DNA from: a virus
Direction: 5' to 3' (one strand)
DNA length: 64,000 bases
IMG/VR virus record: IMGVR_UViG_3300032053_000019
Span: 34,440 to 98,439 of that record
This document shows, piece by piece, positions 2,891 through 45,447 of this stretch. Position numbers and translations under genes: made by a program. The notes beneath the pieces are model-generated. The model ran no database searches, was not told where the DNA came from, and saw only the letters and a program-made list of their open reading frames with translations. How positions within the stretch are numbered: position 1 is the stretch's first letter; each line of letters starts with the position of its first letter.

Positions 2891-3174
2891 TCATTGAACT
2901 TCGTAAGACGTACAGGATCAAAGGAAACTCGTCGTACTTCAAGGAGAAGTACGCGACTTCCAATCCTTTGATCATCATTGAGGGACCAGCCGAAACCGTC
3001 TTCGGCAGTGGTATACATCTGGCCTCAATGAGTGGCAACTGGGCCGCCCGCCTCTTCCTGGAGCGGGTGGTGGCCGAAGATCCCCCAGGCAAGACAGCCT
3101 ACTACGGTCACGAGGTGGTTACGGGCCTGGGGGAGTGCGTGTTCGATGAGGAACTAGAGGAGGTGACTCAGTGA
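2887..3174 (+). CDS. hypothetical protein
   Basis: RBS AGGAGG, coupled ORF. Confidence 0.7.
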   Translation: MIIELRKTYRIKGNSSYFKEKYATSNPLIIIEGPAETVFGSGIHLASMSGNWAARLFLERVVAEDPPGKTAYYGHEVVTGLGECVFDEELEEVTQ

Positions 3175-3473: not shown

Positions 3474-3862
3474 AAACCATCCCGATCAGTAAGTTCGGAA
3501 AGGACCACTGGTCACTCCTGGCCTACATCGGGTGCCGGTGCGTGGACAATGAAGGCACCTTGAACAAGGAGCATCTTCGGGTCAATATCAAGACCCATCC
3601 TCAGCACAGTCACCGGGGAACCCAGAATTTCCTTGATGTGTTTCCCTATCCCACACGTCTTGCTGAAGGAAAGATCGCCGCTAAGGGGCATGACGATTGG
3701 GATTGCTTGGACGATCTCGAGAAGGCTGGCTTGATCAAGCTACATGGTACGGGACTCAATCCCGTTTATGCCATGACAGTCAAGGGGTGGGAGGTGGATA
3801 GTCAGATCCGCCAATTCAAAGCCACCGGTGGTACCTTCGCGACCTTCAAGTATGAGGAGTGA
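3470..3862 (+). CDS. hypothetical protein (possible winged helix)
   Basis: ATGA overlap; CLDDLEKAGLI...YAMTVKG. Confidence 0.65.
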   Translation: MKTIPISKFGKDHWSLLAYIGCRCVDNEGTLNKEHLRVNIKTHPQHSHRGTQNFLDVFPYPTRLAEGKIAAKGHDDWDCLDDLEKAGLIKLHGTGLNPVYAMTVKGWEVDSQIRQFKATGGTFATFKYEE

Positions 3863-4068
3863 TCATGCTCCCCGTTGATCAATTAGGCGGACTGGCCGGG
3901 ATCCCACAAGGGTCACGATGGGAGTTCCTGGGCGATCTCAAGACTCGGCAGATGAGCTATCCTATACATCCTCTCTGCCGCGCCTGCGCCAGCGACTGCA
4001 AGGTTCACGACGCCAAGGGGCTGATCGTGTTCGTCTGCCATGCCTTTAAGAAACCTAACCATAGATAA
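3859..4068 (+). CDS. hypothetical Cys-rich protein
   Basis: CRACASDC motif, coupled ORF. Confidence 0.5.
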   Translation: MIMLPVDQLGGLAGIPQGSRWEFLGDLKTRQMSYPIHPLCRACASDCKVHDAKGLIVFVCHAFKKPNHR

Positions 4069-4070
4069 AG

Positions 4071-4146
4071 GGGAATGGTGGAGAAGTGACAAAGGCAAAG
4101 ACATCCGAAAGGATAATCAACTCATCATCACCAATCCACCATTCCT
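4071..4146 (+). ncRNA. guide-like stem-loop unit U0 (orphan)
   Basis: Stem GGAATGGTGGA/TCCACCATTCC enclosing GACA-AAGGCAAAGA-CATC-CGAAAG-GATA-ATCAACTCAT-CATC; same geometry as units at 5725-7342. Confidence 0.8.
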
Positions 4147-4164
4147 ATTTTTTAAAGAAATCTC

Positions 4165-4193
4165 TTGATTTTTGTTTTGAGTTGACTTATAAT
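4165..4193 (+). promoter_or_regulatory. sigma70-type promoter upstream of helicase / RNA-guided locus
   Basis: TTGATT-17bp-TATAAT. Confidence 0.75.
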
Positions 4194-4204
4194 TATGACT
4201 CAAT

Positions 4205-4308
4205 GAGGAAGGAGGCACGATGTCAGTCCTATTAAGTATCACCGCTAATGCGGAATTGACTTTCTCATCTTTGCCTCCTCAGGGATTGCTCGTGCCTCCT
4301 ATCCTTCC
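4205..4308 (+). ncRNA. degenerate guide-like unit in 5' leader with two alternative closing stems
   Basis: GTCC-TATTAAGTAT-CA-CCGCTAATGCGG-AA-TTGACTTTCT-CATC; 5' arm GGAGGCA(CGA) can pair with TGCCTCC (4272) or TCGTGCCTCCT (4290). Confidence 0.5.
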
Positions 4309-4326
4309 TTTTCTTCGGAGTATAGT

Positions 4327-5736
4327 GTGACCTATAAGATCACTCTCGGCAACGTCTTCTCAGAAATGAATGACTACCCAACGGAACTGGAGCAAAGACT
4401 TGCTATTGCCCATCCCAATTTTTGGTTTAGTCCACAATACAAAATGCATGTATGGGACGGGAAAACCCACTTCCTTAAACTAACTCCGACAGTTCACTTC
4501 CCCACGGGTCTCCTTTTCATCGTGGAGGAGTTCCTCAAAGAGAAGGGTCTGGACTATGAACTCATTGATCCTCGCATGCCGATCAAGTATTCCGATGGCA
4601 TGTTAGCTCCAGTTTCCCCCGATCTACTGAATGGTATTACCCTCCGGGAGTATCAGATTACCGCGATTGAGGAAGCAATCCGAAAAAGGCGGGGCGTTCT
4701 TGAACTGCCCACCGGGTCAGGCAAGACCGAAGTAGCCGCAGGTATCATTAAACTCCTTAATCGGCCCACACTCTTTTTGGTACACACGCAGGACCTCTTA
4801 CATCAGACCGCCGAACGATTCACCAACCGCCTTGACATTCCGATTGGCAAGATCGGGGATGGTGAATACGATATAGAAAAACGATGCGTTGTTGCGACCA
4901 TTCAATCTTGCCATGCCCGCCTCAAGTCGAAGGAACAAGACAAGCGAACTGAGATAAAACAATTACTGGAGCGGGCCGAAGTAGTCTTCCAGGACGAAGT
5001 GCACCACGCCAGCGCGAGTACGTGGTACAGCATCGGTCAGAAAACCTTGTCGGCAAGGTTCCGATTCGGATTGTCCGGAACTGTCCTTCGCCGAGACGAA
5101 CTTTCAAACATGAAGATGTTAGCTCTCTTCGGTGAACCGATCTATACTAAACGGACAATGGACTTAGTTGACGATGGATATCTAAGCAAGATTCAGATCA
5201 CTATGATTGATAATCCTGAAGTGGTAGAGGGTACTTCCTGGTCGGACATTTACTTAAACGGTATTGTCAAGTCTGAGTCCCGGAATAAGATGATAGTTGA
5301 TCAAGCCGAGACGGCTTTCCGAGAGAATAAACGAGTTCTACTACTGATTAGGTATATTGATCATGGAAAGACCCTAACTCGTCTGCTTAACGAGCAGAGG
5401 AGTATTCCTACCGTATTCTTGAGTGGACAAAGTGGACGTGATGATCGTAAGGAGCGAAAAGAAGAGTTTAATGAGAATGGAAACTTCATTTTAATTGCCA
5501 GTACAATTTATGATGAAGGGATTGATCTCCCCGAAGTGAATGTCTTAATCATAGCCTCTGGTGGATTAAGTGAAGTCAAAACAATACAAAGAGTAGGACG
5601 TGGTTTGAGAAAGAAGAAGGATGGTTCAACTCTTCAAGTCTTTGACTTTGAGGATAGTTCGGATTATTTGATCAAGCATTCGAAGGAGCGCAAACAAGTT
5701 TATATTCAGGAAGGATTCTTAGGTGTGGACGAGTAA
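4327..5736 (+). CDS. superfamily 2 DNA helicase (UvsW-like)
   Basis: LPTGSGKT Walker A, DEVHH, GLSGT, EGIDLP, QRVGRGLR. Confidence 0.92.
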   Translation: MTYKITLGNVFSEMNDYPTELEQRLAIAHPNFWFSPQYKMHVWDGKTHFLKLTPTVHFPTGLLFIVEEFLKEKGLDYELIDPRMPIKYSDGMLAPVSPDLLNGITLREYQITAIEEAIRKRRGVLELPTGSGKTEVAAGIIKLLNRPTLFLVHTQDLLHQTAERFTNRLDIPIGKIGDGEYDIEKRCVVATIQSCHARLKSKEQDKRTEIKQLLERAEVVFQDEVHHASASTWYSIGQKTLSARFRFGLSGTVLRRDELSNMKMLALFGEPIYTKRTMDLVDDGYLSKIQITMIDNPEVVEGTSWSDIYLNGIVKSESRNKMIVDQAETAFRENKRVLLLIRYIDHGKTLTRLLNEQRSIPTVFLSGQSGRDDRKERKEEFNENGNFILIASTIYDEGIDLPEVNVLIIASGGLSEVKTIQRVGRGLRKKKDGSTLQVFDFEDSSDYLIKHSKERKQVYIQEGFLGVDE

Positions 5737-5967
5737 GATACTGGCAAGAGCGTCCTTAAGGACCAAGGTAGATTCGTCTGCTCGTCCACTTCCTTTGTAT
5801 AATCAAAGACGAGTTAATGATCAAGGGAATGAACACCCCCAGTGGCATGAGTCGGACCAGTCGTTAACTCGTCCGCTTTGCATACGAGAACGAAGAGGGG
5901 TTGGTAAGTCAAATAGAGCATCAGCTTTTGCGTTAAAGACTGGAACAACTACTAATCCTTTCTCTTC
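5725..5967 (+). ncRNA. array of three guide-like stem-loop units U1-U3 (5725-5789, 5808-5873, 5892-5967)
   Basis: Each has an 11-13 bp outer stem of unique sequence with G-U pairs, enclosing 4nt-N10-14nt-N10-4nt. Confidence 0.88.
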
Positions 5968-5986
5968 CATTTTATAAGGAGTTACT

Positions 5987-7105
5987 ATGAGTATCTATGC
6001 CATTGATTGGCACACGAAGAAAGAGATTCCAATTTATGACGGGAAGAAGATCAAGAAGATTCCGAACTCCCCTTTCTCTATTGCCGAATGGGCAAAGGGA
6101 CTTGAAAAGAGAAAGCATATCTTTCTCTTTGAGGCTGGTGGCGGTGACTTCATGAAGATTCTTCTTCACCGTCAAGGGCATACTGTCCTCACCATGCCTG
6201 GTATACATACGAAGCAGTTTCGTGATCGCATTGATGTTGAGAAGACAGACGATACGGACGTGTCACTGATCTACGAATTATATACAAAGTGGGTGGAGGA
6301 GACAGTGGGTCGAGCATCTTCGGGGACAACCGTCCGGTCATCTTCCCACCCACTTTCCTTTTACCCCTTCTCCGAACTGGACTGCACCATCTCATCACTT
6401 CGACTTTTTGTTCGTCGACGCGACTTGGTTCAGGAAGAACGGATACGAGAGAACAACCGGGCTCTGATCTTCAACCTGACCTACTCTCTAACGAACACAC
6501 CAAAGAAAGAAATTGATAAAGTTCAGGAACTTCAAAAGACACGAGTTGAGGATTATAAAAAGGAAGAGGCAAGTCTGACCAAGCAGGTCAATCGTATGCT
6601 AGGCACTCTACCAATCTGGACTGACAAGTGGAAAAAGATCAAGGGGTTTGGCCCTAACATTGTTGGGGGTTTGATCGCCGAACTTGGTAGATGCCAAGCT
6701 CAGACCAGGGCCCAGGTGCGAATGTTCACCAGTATGGTTCCTCGTGAAGCGAATCTTACTGAGAGTGGAAAGCGTCGGCGCAACTCGAATCGTATTCGTG
6801 GGTTGCTATATGATGCAGTTGAGCAGATCATCAAGCAGAAGACTCCGGGGTGGAATGAATGGTACTACAGGTTAAAGGAAAAGTATGCCTCACTTCATCC
6901 TGACTGGTCCAAGGGCAAGGTGGATAACTATGCCCGTCGTGTGCTGAAGACACAACTGGCCATTGAATTCTGGTCTGATCTTCGGCACTATGGTATGTTG
7001 CCAAACAGTGGGGGAGTTAGTGTGACAAACAAACTTACGGTTTCAAAACTAAGAGTTTCCTCATCCGCCTCCTCCTCCCTTTCTTCTACCGAGGCACAAG
7101 TATGA
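5987..7105 (+). CDS. IS110-family-derived RuvC(DEDD)-coiled coil-Nop/Tnp20 protein (TasR-like RNA-guided effector candidate)
   Basis: D7 (YAIDW), E49 (LFEAG), D88/D91 (KTDDTD); IKGFGPNIVGGLIAELG helix-hairpin; SMVP...ESG...NSNRIRGLLY; WYYRLK...ARR; RBS AAGGAG. Confidence 0.85.
   Translation: MSIYAIDWHTKKEIPIYDGKKIKKIPNSPFSIAEWAKGLEKRKHIFLFEAGGGDFMKILLHRQGHTVLTMPGIHTKQFRDRIDVEKTDDTDVSLIYELYTKWVEETVGRASSGTTVRSSSHPLSFYPFSELDCTISSLRLFVRRRDLVQEERIRENNRALIFNLTYSLTNTPKKEIDKVQELQKTRVEDYKKEEASLTKQVNRMLGTLPIWTDKWKKIKGFGPNIVGGLIAELGRCQAQTRAQVRMFTSMVPREANLTESGKRRRNSNRIRGLLYDAVEQIIKQKTPGWNEWYYRLKEKYASLHPDWSKGKVDNYARRVLKTQLAIEFWSDLRHYGMLPNSGGVSVTNKLTVSKLRVSSSASSSLSSTEAQV
6286..6356 (+). ncRNA. guide-like unit U4 embedded in the effector ORF
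   Basis: AAAGTGGGTGG/CCACCCACTTT stem enclosing GACA-GTGGGTCGAG-CATC-TTCGGG-GACA-ACCGTCCGGT-CATC. Confidence 0.85.
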
Positions 7106-7342
7106 TCAAGATTGGTAAGTCAATGACACTTTCGTCCTACGAGATAGACGCAGTATCGGCTACCAATCTTGATCTCTTTTGTAAACAAGATGGGTTGGAA
7201 AGACAAGGGAGTTTCCATTTCTTTAAACATGGTGTAGCGCATCTTCTAATCCATCTTTTCTCTGCTAACAATCTTGAACCAGTAAGACCAGTTCACCTGC
7301 ACCACCATAGGCAATGTCAAAGCCATCTACTGGTTCAAGATT
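7010..7342 (+). ncRNA. array of four guide-like units U5-U8 (7010-7079 inside ORF tail, 7104-7174, 7187-7257, 7270-7342)
   Basis: 14-15 bp stems in U6-U8 (e.g. GATCAAGATTGGTA/TACCAATCTTGATC, AATCTTGAACCAGTA/TACTGGTTCAAGATT), weaker stem in U5; all enclose the same 42-nt core geometry; period 83-95 nt. Confidence 0.88.
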
Positions 7343-7360
7343 TTTCTATTAGGAGACACC

Positions 7361-8239
7361 ATGAGTTATGAGTCAGCAAGAAAACTATTGGGAAAAGTAC
7401 TTGATCGTGCCTGGTTGGTTGAGGTCCCAGGAGCAAGCTATAGGATACTGATTGCCTCTACTACCAATCTTCTCGAACGATTCGCTAGAGAGATTGGTAT
7501 TCCAATATCCTTTGCTGGAGGTTCCGAACGTTACCCCATGTCACCATCTATTCGTGTTTGGAAACAAACCCTCTATGACGCCTTGCAAGGAGGCGCTGAG
7601 CTGATCTCACAAAAGGACTTTGATCATATCTTTTGTGATCAGTGGGGATGCGGTATTAGTATTAACGGAAAGTATTATAGTCCAAAAGAGAGACCGGGCA
7701 TGGATGAGTGCCCGATTGATCAATTAAAAGAGGAGGTCCAAAAAATGGACAACACACCGGTTGATCTGAAGTTGGTTCATCGGTTCCAACTTCGGCCACA
7801 ACTTCGAAAGCTTTTGAGTGACCGAGCAAGGGAGGAGGTGGCAAAGTACCTTATGCCCTTCCGTGAAGGACGAGCCTCAGCAAAAATGTTTCAGGTATTG
7901 TTTGGTCGAAAGAGGAAGAAGGCAGACATAGGTGACGAAGCTGAAAAGGTTGCTCTCTTGGCTAGGGTTACTACAGGAACCGTTGATCGAGCAAAGAGTG
8001 GGCAACGTTGCTATACCAAGAACGGAGTGAAAGTATACTATGACATGGAAGTCACCGCTTCGGTGGGCCTTCTTTACGCGATTGGTATTCTCGAAAATCG
8101 TTCCATACTTAAAAAGTATGAGGACATGCTTTCCCCCACTCGTCGCCCCAAAGTTACTACTGACCGACTCTATACCAAAGCTGAGGTCGAAGAGGCAGTT
8201 GCGATTGCTTTAAAACAACTTCACGAGGGAAAAAAGTAA
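7361..8239 (+). CDS. hypothetical protein
   Basis: 292-aa ORF, RBS AGGAG, immediately after array. Confidence 0.75.
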   Translation: MSYESARKLLGKVLDRAWLVEVPGASYRILIASTTNLLERFAREIGIPISFAGGSERYPMSPSIRVWKQTLYDALQGGAELISQKDFDHIFCDQWGCGISINGKYYSPKERPGMDECPIDQLKEEVQKMDNTPVDLKLVHRFQLRPQLRKLLSDRAREEVAKYLMPFREGRASAKMFQVLFGRKRKKADIGDEAEKVALLARVTTGTVDRAKSGQRCYTKNGVKVYYDMEVTASVGLLYAIGILENRSILKKYEDMLSPTRRPKVTTDRLYTKAEVEEAVAIALKQLHEGKK

Positions 8240-9805: not shown

Positions 9806-10149
9806 TCGTGAAGGAATACAAAGACACTCTCGGCATTATTAACGAGATTCCTGGTGAGTGCATTGATACCAGAAACCGAATCAAGGCCTGCCGAGAGTTC
9901 CTTTTTCGCAAGTTACAGGAACAGGAAAAAGGTACTAGTGATAAAAAAGTTCCTATGGAAAATTGTGATGGTCAATAACAAGGTGGTGTTTAATTATAAT
10001 AAGGCCTCATTGGGCCCTGATGGGCTCATCTTGTTTATAGGGATTCTATATTTTCTATTTTCTCAATGGGACACGATAGAGCGCTTTAGCGCTCTAGCGG
10101 GACCCAGTCCGAAACGGACCACGCGGCAAGGCCGCGTACAGGAACTTTA

Positions 10150-45141: not shown

Positions 45142-45447
45142 AACCCATTCTTACGTCGCGAATCTCCGAACCGCCGGGGAGTACGGAGTGGGTTATTCTG
45201 CCACGCATCTGCGGCCACTTCTCAGCAATGGGGAGATGGGTGTCGTGGTAATTATATTGTTGTGGCATCATCGCTGGGTGTGGTGAGCCAGGAGGTTTCC
45301 TGGTGCGGTAAAAGCCCAGAGGGGTCCGGACCTCAATGGGGGCCGCTTCCTTTCGGTCCTCACGTAGTCCGGATAGGTTCGGACCCCGTTTTTGATCACG
45401 ATGGCTGGCCAGACGAAGGGGTTAGTCCCAAGGTAATGCCAGCTTTT
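45142..45447 (+). ncRNA. putative ~300-nt structured non-coding RNA
   Basis: Five or more nested GC-rich stems with G-U pairs on the + strand. Confidence 0.55.

What the first reader, a model, noticed from the sequence alone, without database searches (positions are those of the whole stretch)
5725..7342. Compensatory covariation and G-U strand bias indicate the units act as + strand RNAs
Seen: in all nine units linker positions 3/12 and 4/11 pair although the bases change (T-A/C-G, C-G/C-G, G-T/C-G, G-C/T-A, T-A/T-A). The outer pairs flanking the loop also covary (GA/TC, GT/AC, GT/GC, AT/GT), usually after one bulged base. Outer-stem imperfections are mostly G-T on the + strand (4 in U3, 2 in U7); these would be A-C mismatches on the - strand. 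Inference: selection acts on RNA structure in the same sense as the effector mRNA, so guides are probably processed from the operon transcript.
Basis: seen in the sequence. Interest (0 to 1): 0.8.

Follow-up and report, generated by a model that had tools for sequence, protein, structure and literature searches.

The report
Phage TIGR-TasR guide RNA hairpins
The nine hairpins around this phage gene are two-part guide RNAs of a TIGR-TasR system, a kind of RNA-guided DNA-targeting system described in 2025-2026, and their sequence does favour function as RNA of the same strand as the gene; it is a new example, not a new kind.

Summary
Nine hairpin units share a fixed 42-nt core. U1-U8 lie at 5725-7342; U0 lies outside the given span, at 4072-4145.

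Isolated stem mismatches are G-T on the + strand in 11 cases and A-C in none. Stem-only folding favours the + strand in 7 of 9 units.

The gene in the middle (5987-7105) is a TasR. Its best sequence and fold match is PDB 9MTY, and the DEDD acidic residues are intact. The locus is therefore a stem-loop TIGR-TasR system, with units upstream of, inside and downstream of tasR, as published (Faure 2025; Xu 2026 preprint). This scan has noted such systems in at least 88 other genomes.

In 16 related loci, 62 of 63 units lie on the tas strand and covary strongly.

One signal points the other way: the conserved letters next to the spacers would form G-U pairs on the minus strand. I read them as box letters, because a conserved A before each spacer and a bulge on the 5' side fit the + strand.

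Co-transcription and processing remain inference; no RNA run was listed. Verdict: new member of a known kind, with an unusual box D (C-R instead of U-G).

The parts
4072..4145 (+). Unit U0, an orphan tigRNA-like hairpin 1.58 kb upstream of U1. Core at 4088-4129. It lies between ORF 3859-4068 and a promoter-like site and is followed by a run of T.
   Evidence: model R1 gives 46.1 bits
4165..4193 (+). Promoter-like site (TTGATT, 17 nt, TATAAT; 10 of 12) upstream of the helicase gene. It is a possible start of the helicase-tasR transcript.
   Evidence: This is a consensus match only; the number of sites in the region is not above shuffles.
4327..5736 (+). Superfamily 2 helicase gene (ResIII plus Helicase_C). 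Its stop codon lies inside the 5' arm of U1.
5725..5792 (+). Unit U1, core 5737-5778
   Evidence: 57.0 bits
5808..5873 (+). Unit U2, core 5820-5861. It has no bulge and a continuous 14-bp stem with two U-G pairs.
   Evidence: 49.3 bits
5893..5967 (+). Unit U3, core 5908-5949. It ends 19 nt before the tasR start codon.
   Evidence: (55.3 bits)
5987..7105 (+). tasR gene, 372 aa: RuvC-like N-terminal domain with D7, E49, D88 and D91, then a coiled coil, then a Nop-type C-terminal domain.
   Evidence: phmmer hit to PDB 9MTY, E 2.5e-11; AlphaFold2 model with pLDDT 86.9; Foldseek top hit 9MTY at 5.9e-13, IS621 next; acidic residues conserved in alignment A4
6286..6356 (+). Unit U4 inside the tasR reading frame, core 6301-6342. 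It encodes residues 100-124, part of an insertion that varies among relatives.
   Evidence: 58.2 bits; pLDDT 59 for residues 111-120
7010..7078 (+). Unit U5 inside the tasR reading frame, core 7024-7065. It encodes residues 342-364 of the disordered C-terminal tail.
   Evidence: 53.1 bits; pLDDT below 50 for 343-372
7104..7174 (+). Unit U6, core 7119-7160. It overlaps the tasR stop codon.
   Evidence: 61.3 bits
7187..7257 (+). Unit U7, core 7202-7243. Its stem holds two G-U pairs.
   Evidence: 58.6 bits
7270..7342 (+). Unit U8, core 7286-7327. It ends 18 nt before the next ORF (7361).
   Evidence: (58.2 bits)

Best explanation
The locus is a phage-borne stem-loop TIGR-TasR system.

Each of the nine hairpins is a tigRNA gene read from the + strand. 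A variable outer stem of 11-17 bp encloses two variable spacers of 9-10 nt. Each spacer is preceded by a box C-like motif (paired dinucleotide, then Y-A) and followed by a box D-like motif (C-R, then paired dinucleotide). They give the RNA the two-fold pseudo-symmetry needed to bind a symmetric TasR dimer.

By analogy with characterised TIGR systems, one spacer pairs with one DNA strand and the other spacer with the opposite strand of an adjacent target of about 18-20 bp. This step is inferred.

TasR keeps all four RuvC acidic residues, so it probably cuts DNA rather than only binding it. This is also inferred.

The units most likely ride on the + strand transcripts of the surrounding genes and are trimmed near the stem bases by an unidentified RNase. 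Removing U4 or U5 would cut the tasR message itself. All of this is inferred.

Shown here: the units, their architecture, the covariation, the strand bias, the identity of the protein and the same design in relatives. Not shown: expression, processing and targets.
For: Architecture and covariation. Model R1 finds only these nine sites in the 98,439-bp genome, all on the + strand; the next best score is 16.6 bits against 46-61 for the units.

Protein: phmmer hit to 9MTY TasR at 2.5e-11, with D7 aligned to the catalytic D11; Foldseek 9MTY at 5.9e-13; D7, E49, D88 and D91 conserved in the clade.

Intragenic units fall in low-confidence insertions, as Xu et al. 2026 describe.

Relatives: 63 units in 16 loci, 62 on the tas strand; 96.6% of cells paired, 189 double changes, 0 of 500 shuffles; 57 G-U against 15 A-C.

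Strand in this window: 11 G-U against 0 isolated A-C; stem-only energy difference of -3.5 kcal/mol, 7 units to 1, p 0.016; A before 16 of 18 spacers and C after 18 of 18; CUU at the 3' stem base in 5 of 9, p 0.001 against background.

Literature: stem-loop arrays, secondary hairpins in the loop, intragenic units and the CUU motif; conserved box C adenine; box D can begin with C or U in different systems.
Against: - No RNA data were available for this locus.
- On the + strand box D reads C-A or C-G, not the U-G of TaTasR, PateTasR and the fetched relatives. On the minus strand U-G or U-A would follow each spacer.
- Core columns 3/40 and 16/27 would give 11 G-U pairs on the minus strand, against 11 non-pairs on the + strand.
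- The model built from relatives (R2) does not detect the window's units on either strand (at most 10.5 bits), so homology of the RNA units rests on architecture, not on sequence.
- There are only nine units, and they are partly related by duplication.
- No target was found for any spacer pair in the phage's own genome above control level.
Confidence: 0.85

Rival explanations
1. The units are tigRNAs, but the functional RNA is the minus strand, antisense to tasR and its neighbours. On that strand each spacer is followed by U-G or U-A, like the canonical box D.
For: - On the minus strand the linker reads U-G-U-C, 6 nt, G-A-U-G. This is close to the commonest linker of relatives (U-G-U-C, loop, G-A-U-U).
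- Columns 3/40 and 16/27 would pair in 15 of 18 cells on that strand, 11 of them G-U.
- The best hit of model R1 among relatives fell on the minus strand of one unit (L010 800-872, 20.5 bits).
Against: - All 11 isolated stem mismatches would be A-C and none G-U, and stems would be weaker in 7 of 9 units.
- Three of the 36 core pairs would break.
- Columns 16 and 27 assort independently, so that 'pair' shows no covariation.
- The letter before each spacer would be G, not the conserved adenine.
- The bulge would move to the 3' side, unlike in relatives.
- 62 of 63 units of relatives are sense to tas.
- R1 prefers the + strand at more units of relatives than the minus strand.
- All neighbouring genes are on the + strand.
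Confidence: 0.08
2. The hairpins act at the DNA level, as cruciforms or single-strand hairpins that serve as recombination or binding sites for an IS110-type recombinase. They are not guide RNAs.
For: The protein gives weak hits to the Pfam IS110 families and to PHROG transposase families. IS621 is the second-best structural match.
Against: - The Pfam hits are below the curated cut-offs, and TasR (9MTY) is the better match by both sequence and fold.
- DNA hairpins gain nothing from G-T over A-C, yet the bias is 11 to 0.
- The two variable 10-nt segments between fixed motifs are the published tigRNA design.
- No element ends or bridge-RNA-sized structure were seen.
Confidence: 0.03
3. The hairpins are generic RNA elements, such as terminators, attenuators or mRNA stabilisers. 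Their nearness to tasR is a coincidence.
For: U0 and U8 are followed by runs of T. Other long hairpins exist elsewhere in the window.
Against: - The other hairpins do not fit the unit model.
- A fixed 42-nt pseudo-symmetric core in nine units, two of them inside the gene, is not expected of terminators.
- No terminator-like site is scored in the region.
- The same design surrounds tas genes in 16 related loci.
Confidence: 0.02

Closest known systems
Stem-loop TIGR-Tas systems (Faure et al. 2025, Science, PMC12045711, section on stem-loop arrays; Xu et al. 2026, bioRxiv 10.64898/2026.09.09.750476: PateTasR, CsTasR, BlTasA; Guan et al. 2026, bioRxiv 10.64898/2026.08.11.744272: PlTasA)
   Same: - A Nop-domain Tas protein with an N-terminal RuvC domain and a coiled coil.
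[quoted passage not shown]
- A short secondary hairpin between the spacers, as in CsTasR.
- Units upstream of, downstream of and inside the tas reading frame, in disordered protein segments.
- CUU near the stem base.
- A phage host genome.
   Different: - Box D reads C-A or C-G on the + strand instead of U-G, and the C/D pairs are mostly G-C plus A-U (GA/UC).
- There are 14 unpaired letters per arm between the paired dinucleotides; the fetched relatives have 12.
- TasR keeps the full DEDD set, whereas both structurally characterised stem-loop TasR proteins are catalytically dead.
- One unit (U0) sits 1.6 kb away, behind another gene.
Dual-repeat TIGR-TasR of a Thermoproteota archaeon (TaTasR, PDB 9MTY)
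   Same: It is the best sequence and structural match of the protein. The catalytic Asp (D11 there, D7 here) and the other acidic residues align. The guide logic is the same two-spacer design with an adenine just before each spacer.
   Different: - TaTasR uses conserved edge and loop repeats and 36-nt tigRNAs without long stems.
- Identity is only about 22-23%.
- This protein has an insertion and a tail that encode guide units.
IS110/IS621 bridge RNA recombinases (PDB 8WT6, 8WT9)
   Same: A RuvC-like DEDD domain plus an RNA-binding domain of the Nop type. The structured RNA has internal loops that read two DNA strands.
   Different: - Pfam IS110 hits are below cut-off.
- There are many small two-spacer units rather than one two-loop bridge RNA.
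- No transposon ends are present.
- TasR is the better match.
Archaeal box C/D sRNAs with Nop5
   Same: The order C, guide, D', loop, C', guide, D inside a terminal stem, bound by a coiled-coil Nop dimer.
   Different: There are no RUGAUGA or CUGA boxes or k-turns. Rfam gives only a chance-level hit. The protein carries a nuclease domain, not a fibrillarin-binding one.

Membership tests
Stem-loop TIGR-Tas system | A Tas protein with a Nop-type RNA-binding domain and a coiled-coil dimerisation region (for TasR: also an N-terminal RuvC domain) | tested here: met
   phmmer hit to 9MTY at 2.5e-11 over both domains; AlphaFold2 model with pLDDT 86.9 and long helices at 130-167 and 173-205; Foldseek 9MTY at 5.9e-13, and TasH structures at 1e-5 to 1e-6
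Stem-loop TIGR-Tas system | Each unit holds two variable spacers of 8-12 nt | tested here: met
   Two segments of 10 nt (or 9 nt after a semi-conserved A) differ in all nine units, while the flanking columns are conserved
Stem-loop TIGR-Tas system | The same short motifs flank both spacers (box C on the 5' side, box D on the 3' side), with C/D base pairing that covaries and gives pseudo-two-fold symmetry | tested here: met
   The pattern NN-YA, spacer, CR-NN occurs twice per unit. 36 of 36 cells pair and 10 show double changes. The letters differ from the published U-G and CCA/CUU/CUA motifs: box D is C-R here.
Stem-loop TIGR-Tas system | A variable but consistently palindromic stem encloses each unit, in place of conserved edge repeats | tested here: met
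   Stems of 11-17 bp are different in every unit; 84% of cells pair and all 18 pairs show double changes
Stem-loop TIGR-Tas system | Units lie next to or inside the tas gene, on its strand | tested here: met
   Three units lie upstream, two inside, three downstream and one 1.6 kb upstream. All have + polarity by motif. 62 of 63 units of relatives show the same.
Stem-loop TIGR-Tas system | Units are expressed and processed into discrete RNAs that bind Tas | not testable with these tools
   No RNA run was listed
Stem-loop TIGR-Tas system | Tandem-spacer recognition of both strands of a DNA target | not testable with these tools
   No match above controls in the phage's own genome. Host and rival elements are unknown.
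IS110 family bridge-RNA recombinase | Membership of the Pfam families DEDD_Tnp_IS110 and Transposase_20 at the curated thresholds | tested here: not met
   21.1 bits against a cut-off of 29, and 19.8 bits against 21.3
IS110 family bridge-RNA recombinase | One bridge RNA of about 150-250 nt with a target-binding loop and a donor-binding loop, inside a mobile element with defined ends | tested here: not met
   Instead there are nine separate hairpins of about 70 nt, each with its own spacer pair. The only repeats in 5000-8000 are the unit arms themselves.
Box C/D sRNA | Canonical C (RUGAUGA) and D (CUGA) boxes; a match to an Rfam C/D family | tested here: not met
   Only SNORD75 at 17.3 bits against a gathering score of 50 (E 0.79), between two units on the minus strand

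The most novel reading that the evidence does not exclude
This phage lineage may carry a nuclease-competent stem-loop TasR. The DEDD residues are intact, unlike in the two characterised stem-loop TasR proteins, which are dead repressors. Its guide RNAs use a non-canonical box D (C-A or C-G in place of U-G). Motif-anchored array finders could miss such arrays. If so, this lineage might account for some of the viral TasR genes now listed as lacking arrays.
Probability: 0.3. Interest if true: 0.5.

Novelty: new member of a known kind. Interest (0 to 1): 0.3.

Why it matters
The finding itself restates, for one locus, something already established for the family: tigRNA units covary and are read from the tas strand.

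The locus has modest value as a worked example in three respects.
- It is a complete 98-kb phage genome with a full set of nine units, including two inside the tasR frame.
- Its TasR keeps the catalytic residues.
- Its box D differs from the published consensus.

If this TasR does cut DNA, it would show that stem-loop TIGR systems are not all repressors. It would also add a second motif type for array-finding software. A complete genome also makes target hunting possible once a host is known.

Tried and rejected
- RNA evidence: the look-up of sequencing runs listed no RNA holder.
The contigs of the closest relatives (P0003 at 40% identity; the fragments P0009 at 51-53% and P0018 at 41-47%) could not be fetched. 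Scans with P0001, P0003 and alignment A8 in viral contigs and genome contigs found no closer locus.
- GenBank phages hold no relative of TasR and nothing similar to the neighbouring region.
- Orientation by cross-search was inconclusive. R2, built from relatives, scores the window's units at most 10.5 bits on either strand. R1 on relatives is weak, with more hits on the + strand than on the minus strand.
- Whole-unit folding energies of the two strands do not differ. Only stem-only constructs do.
- An exact-pattern scan of viral contigs for the window's unit type returned 118 or more stretches. None scored as a unit with R1 (best 22.6 bits), so they are chance matches.
- Self-targets: with 10-nt or 9-nt spacers, both possible arrangements and gaps of 0-2 bp, the best matches in the phage's own genome (17 of 20 once, otherwise at most 16 of 20; at most 15 of 18) are no better than scrambled controls, which reach 16 of 20 and 16 of 18.
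- Other long hairpins (2916-2973, 3081-3134, 9826-9898, 45321-45387) are not units.
- Rfam gave only a chance-level snoRNA hit.
- Tandem Repeats Finder sees nothing, because the stems differ between units.
- Which spacer arrangement is correct could not be fixed from the paper's text, which is ambiguous on the cut side. Both arrangements were therefore tested.
Full report
**What is there**

The span 5725-7342 holds long hairpins on both sides of, and inside, an ORF at 5987-7105. Aligning them on their central short hairpin shows nine units with an identical, gapless 42-nt core. The core is a paired dinucleotide, Y-A, 10 variable nt and C-R. Then come a paired dinucleotide, a 6-nt loop and its partner dinucleotide. 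It ends with Y-A, 10 variable nt, C-R and the partner of the first dinucleotide.

Around the core lies a stem of 11-17 bp that is different in every unit. In most units one unpaired base separates this stem from the core on the 5' side.

The units are U0 4072-4145, U1 5725-5792, U2 5808-5873, U3 5893-5967, U4 6286-6356, U5 7010-7078, U6 7104-7174, U7 7187-7257 and U8 7270-7342. U0 lies outside the coordinates given. U4 and U5 lie inside the reading frame.

**Check of the observation**

The five base combinations listed for linker positions 3/12 and 4/11, and the four listed for the outer pairs, are exactly what the sequence shows. On the core alignment all 36 cells form standard pairs and 10 have changes on both sides. 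None of 500 shuffles reaches this. Sliding the 3' partners by 1-3 columns drops pairing to 18-58%. With the outer stems included, 84% of 162 cells pair and all 18 pairs show double changes.

A covariance model of the units finds only these nine places in the complete 98,439-bp phage genome. They score 46-61 bits, against 16.6 for the next hit, which is the reverse strand of a unit. That search is circular for the nine units but shows there are no others.

**Strand bias**

I aligned each 5' arm to the reverse complement of its 3' arm with both kinds of transition mismatch scored alike. This gives 124 Watson-Crick pairs, 11 G-T and 2 A-C. Both A-C sit in 3x3 internal loops beside transversion mismatches, so all isolated mismatches are G-T. 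One more G-T lies in the U3 linker.

Whole-unit folding energies do not separate the strands. Stems alone, closed by a GAAA loop, are more stable as + strand RNA in 7 units, equal in 1 and less stable in 1. The mean difference is -3.5 kcal/mol (Wilcoxon p 0.016). U3 has 2 G-T in the best register, not 4; U7 has 2.

**What it is**

The 372-aa protein matches PDB 9MTY, the TIGR-associated TasR nuclease, at E 2.5e-11. Its D7 aligns with the catalytic D11. Pfam IS110 hits are below threshold. An AlphaFold2 model (pLDDT 86.9, pTM 0.82) finds 9MTY first in the PDB at 5.9e-13, then IS621, then the TasH structures. About 100 relatives exist at 25-40% identity, and D7, E49, D88 and D91 are conserved among the closest twenty.

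The published descriptions fit point by point:
- Units can lie upstream of, downstream of or within the tas frame, in disordered segments.
- The loop between the spacers can form a secondary hairpin supported by covariation.
- A CUU marks the stem base.

Here U4 encodes residues 100-124, in an insertion that varies in length among relatives. U5 encodes residues 342-364 of the tail. Both regions are of low confidence in the model.

**Larger alignment**

Loci of relatives fetched from viral, metagenome and genome collections carry units of the same design with other letters. They read: stem, U, G-C, U-A, 9 nt, U-G, loop, C-U-A, 9 nt, U, G-C, stem.

A model of ten of them finds 63 units in 16 loci, 62 on the tas strand. 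In the 61 distinct units, 96.6% of cells pair and 189 show double changes, with 0 of 500 shuffles as high. G-U outnumbers A-C 57 to 15.

This model does not recognise the window's units, so the window carries a divergent unit type.

**The orientation question**

One signal points the other way. On the minus strand each spacer would be followed by U-G or U-A, like the canonical box D. Core columns 3/40 and 16/27, which are C.A or A.C in 11 of 18 cells on the + strand, would become G-U.

I weigh this below the evidence for the + strand, for these reasons:
- Those letters are conserved motif positions (C15 and C39 are invariant), and columns 16 and 27 assort independently.
- The scattered G-U pairs in the freely varying stems are the cleaner signal.
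- The letter before 16 of 18 spacers is A, matching the conserved box C adenine that stacks at the unwinding junction.
- Xu et al. note that the first box D letter can be C or U depending on the protein.
- The bulge is on the 5' side, as in relatives.
- CUU sits at the 3' stem base in 5 of 9 units, against 3 of 9 for the other strand.
- All genes around the locus are on the + strand, with the units filling the gaps between them.

I put the + strand at about 0.9 given that these are tigRNAs.

**How it likely works**

By analogy with TaTasR, a TasR dimer binds one processed unit. Spacer A pairs with one DNA strand and spacer B with the other strand of the adjacent half-site. The intact DEDD set predicts cleavage, unlike the dead RuvC of PateTasR and CsTasR.

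No terminator-like site lies in 3800-7700. The only good promoter-like site on the + strand (4165-4193) lies between U0 and the helicase gene. U1-U8 probably share the helicase-tasR transcript, and U0 belongs to the transcript of the upstream genes. Neither point was tested, and the authors of the field say sequence cannot decide it.

No spacer pair matches the phage's own genome better than scrambled controls do, so the targets lie elsewhere.

**Novelty**

The kind is published, and this scan has noted it in at least 88 genomes. The unusual points are the C-R box D, the catalytically intact stem-loop TasR and the detached unit U0.

Noticed in passing
If the phage DNA is modified, that could bear on whether its own TasR can cut it.
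   Followed up: partly
window 2916-2973, 3081-3134, 9826-9898, 45321-45387: Other hairpins with Watson-Crick stems of 10 bp or more and 34-53 nt inside. They do not fit the unit model (best 10.3 bits) and remain unexplained.
   Followed up: partly
window 5725-5873; 5893-5967, 7104-7174 and 7187-7257: Some units share stem sequence: U1 and U2 share GACGAG/CTCGTC, and U3, U6 and U7 share G-TTGG-AAG/CTA-AATC. Their differences are compensated. This suggests units arise by duplication followed by divergence of stems and spacers.
   Followed up: partly
L010 504-565, 738-796, 807-865; L020 2295-2422; alignment A4 columns 79-95 and 170-255: Relatives carry intragenic units at two insertion sites of TasR, one in the RuvC domain near residue 40 and one after residue 100, sometimes two or three units in a row. 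The closest relatives (P0003, P0009) have an insertion at the same place as U4, with a similar translation (KW.EET ... SS.P).
   Followed up: partly
window 4146-4155 and 7343-7348: U0 and U8, the first and last units, are each followed by a run of T. U0 lies just upstream of the promoter-like site at 4165-4193, so it may end the upstream transcript.
   Followed up: no
window 6986-6991 (residues H334-Y335): A His-Tyr pair follows the last helix of TasR. Dual-repeat Tas proteins use a Tyr/His pair in a C-terminal loop to process tigRNA. Here the pair is not conserved in the closest relative (K-F in P0003), so it is probably a coincidence.
   Followed up: partly
window 5723-5977 and 7102-7371: Two ORFs of 84 and 89 aa cover the unit clusters U1-U3 and U6-U8. 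They have no family hits and are probably not genes.
   Followed up: partly
L028 2608-2661: This is the single unit-like hit on the strand opposite to tas among relatives (19.4 bits, E 0.04). It was not examined.
   Followed up: no
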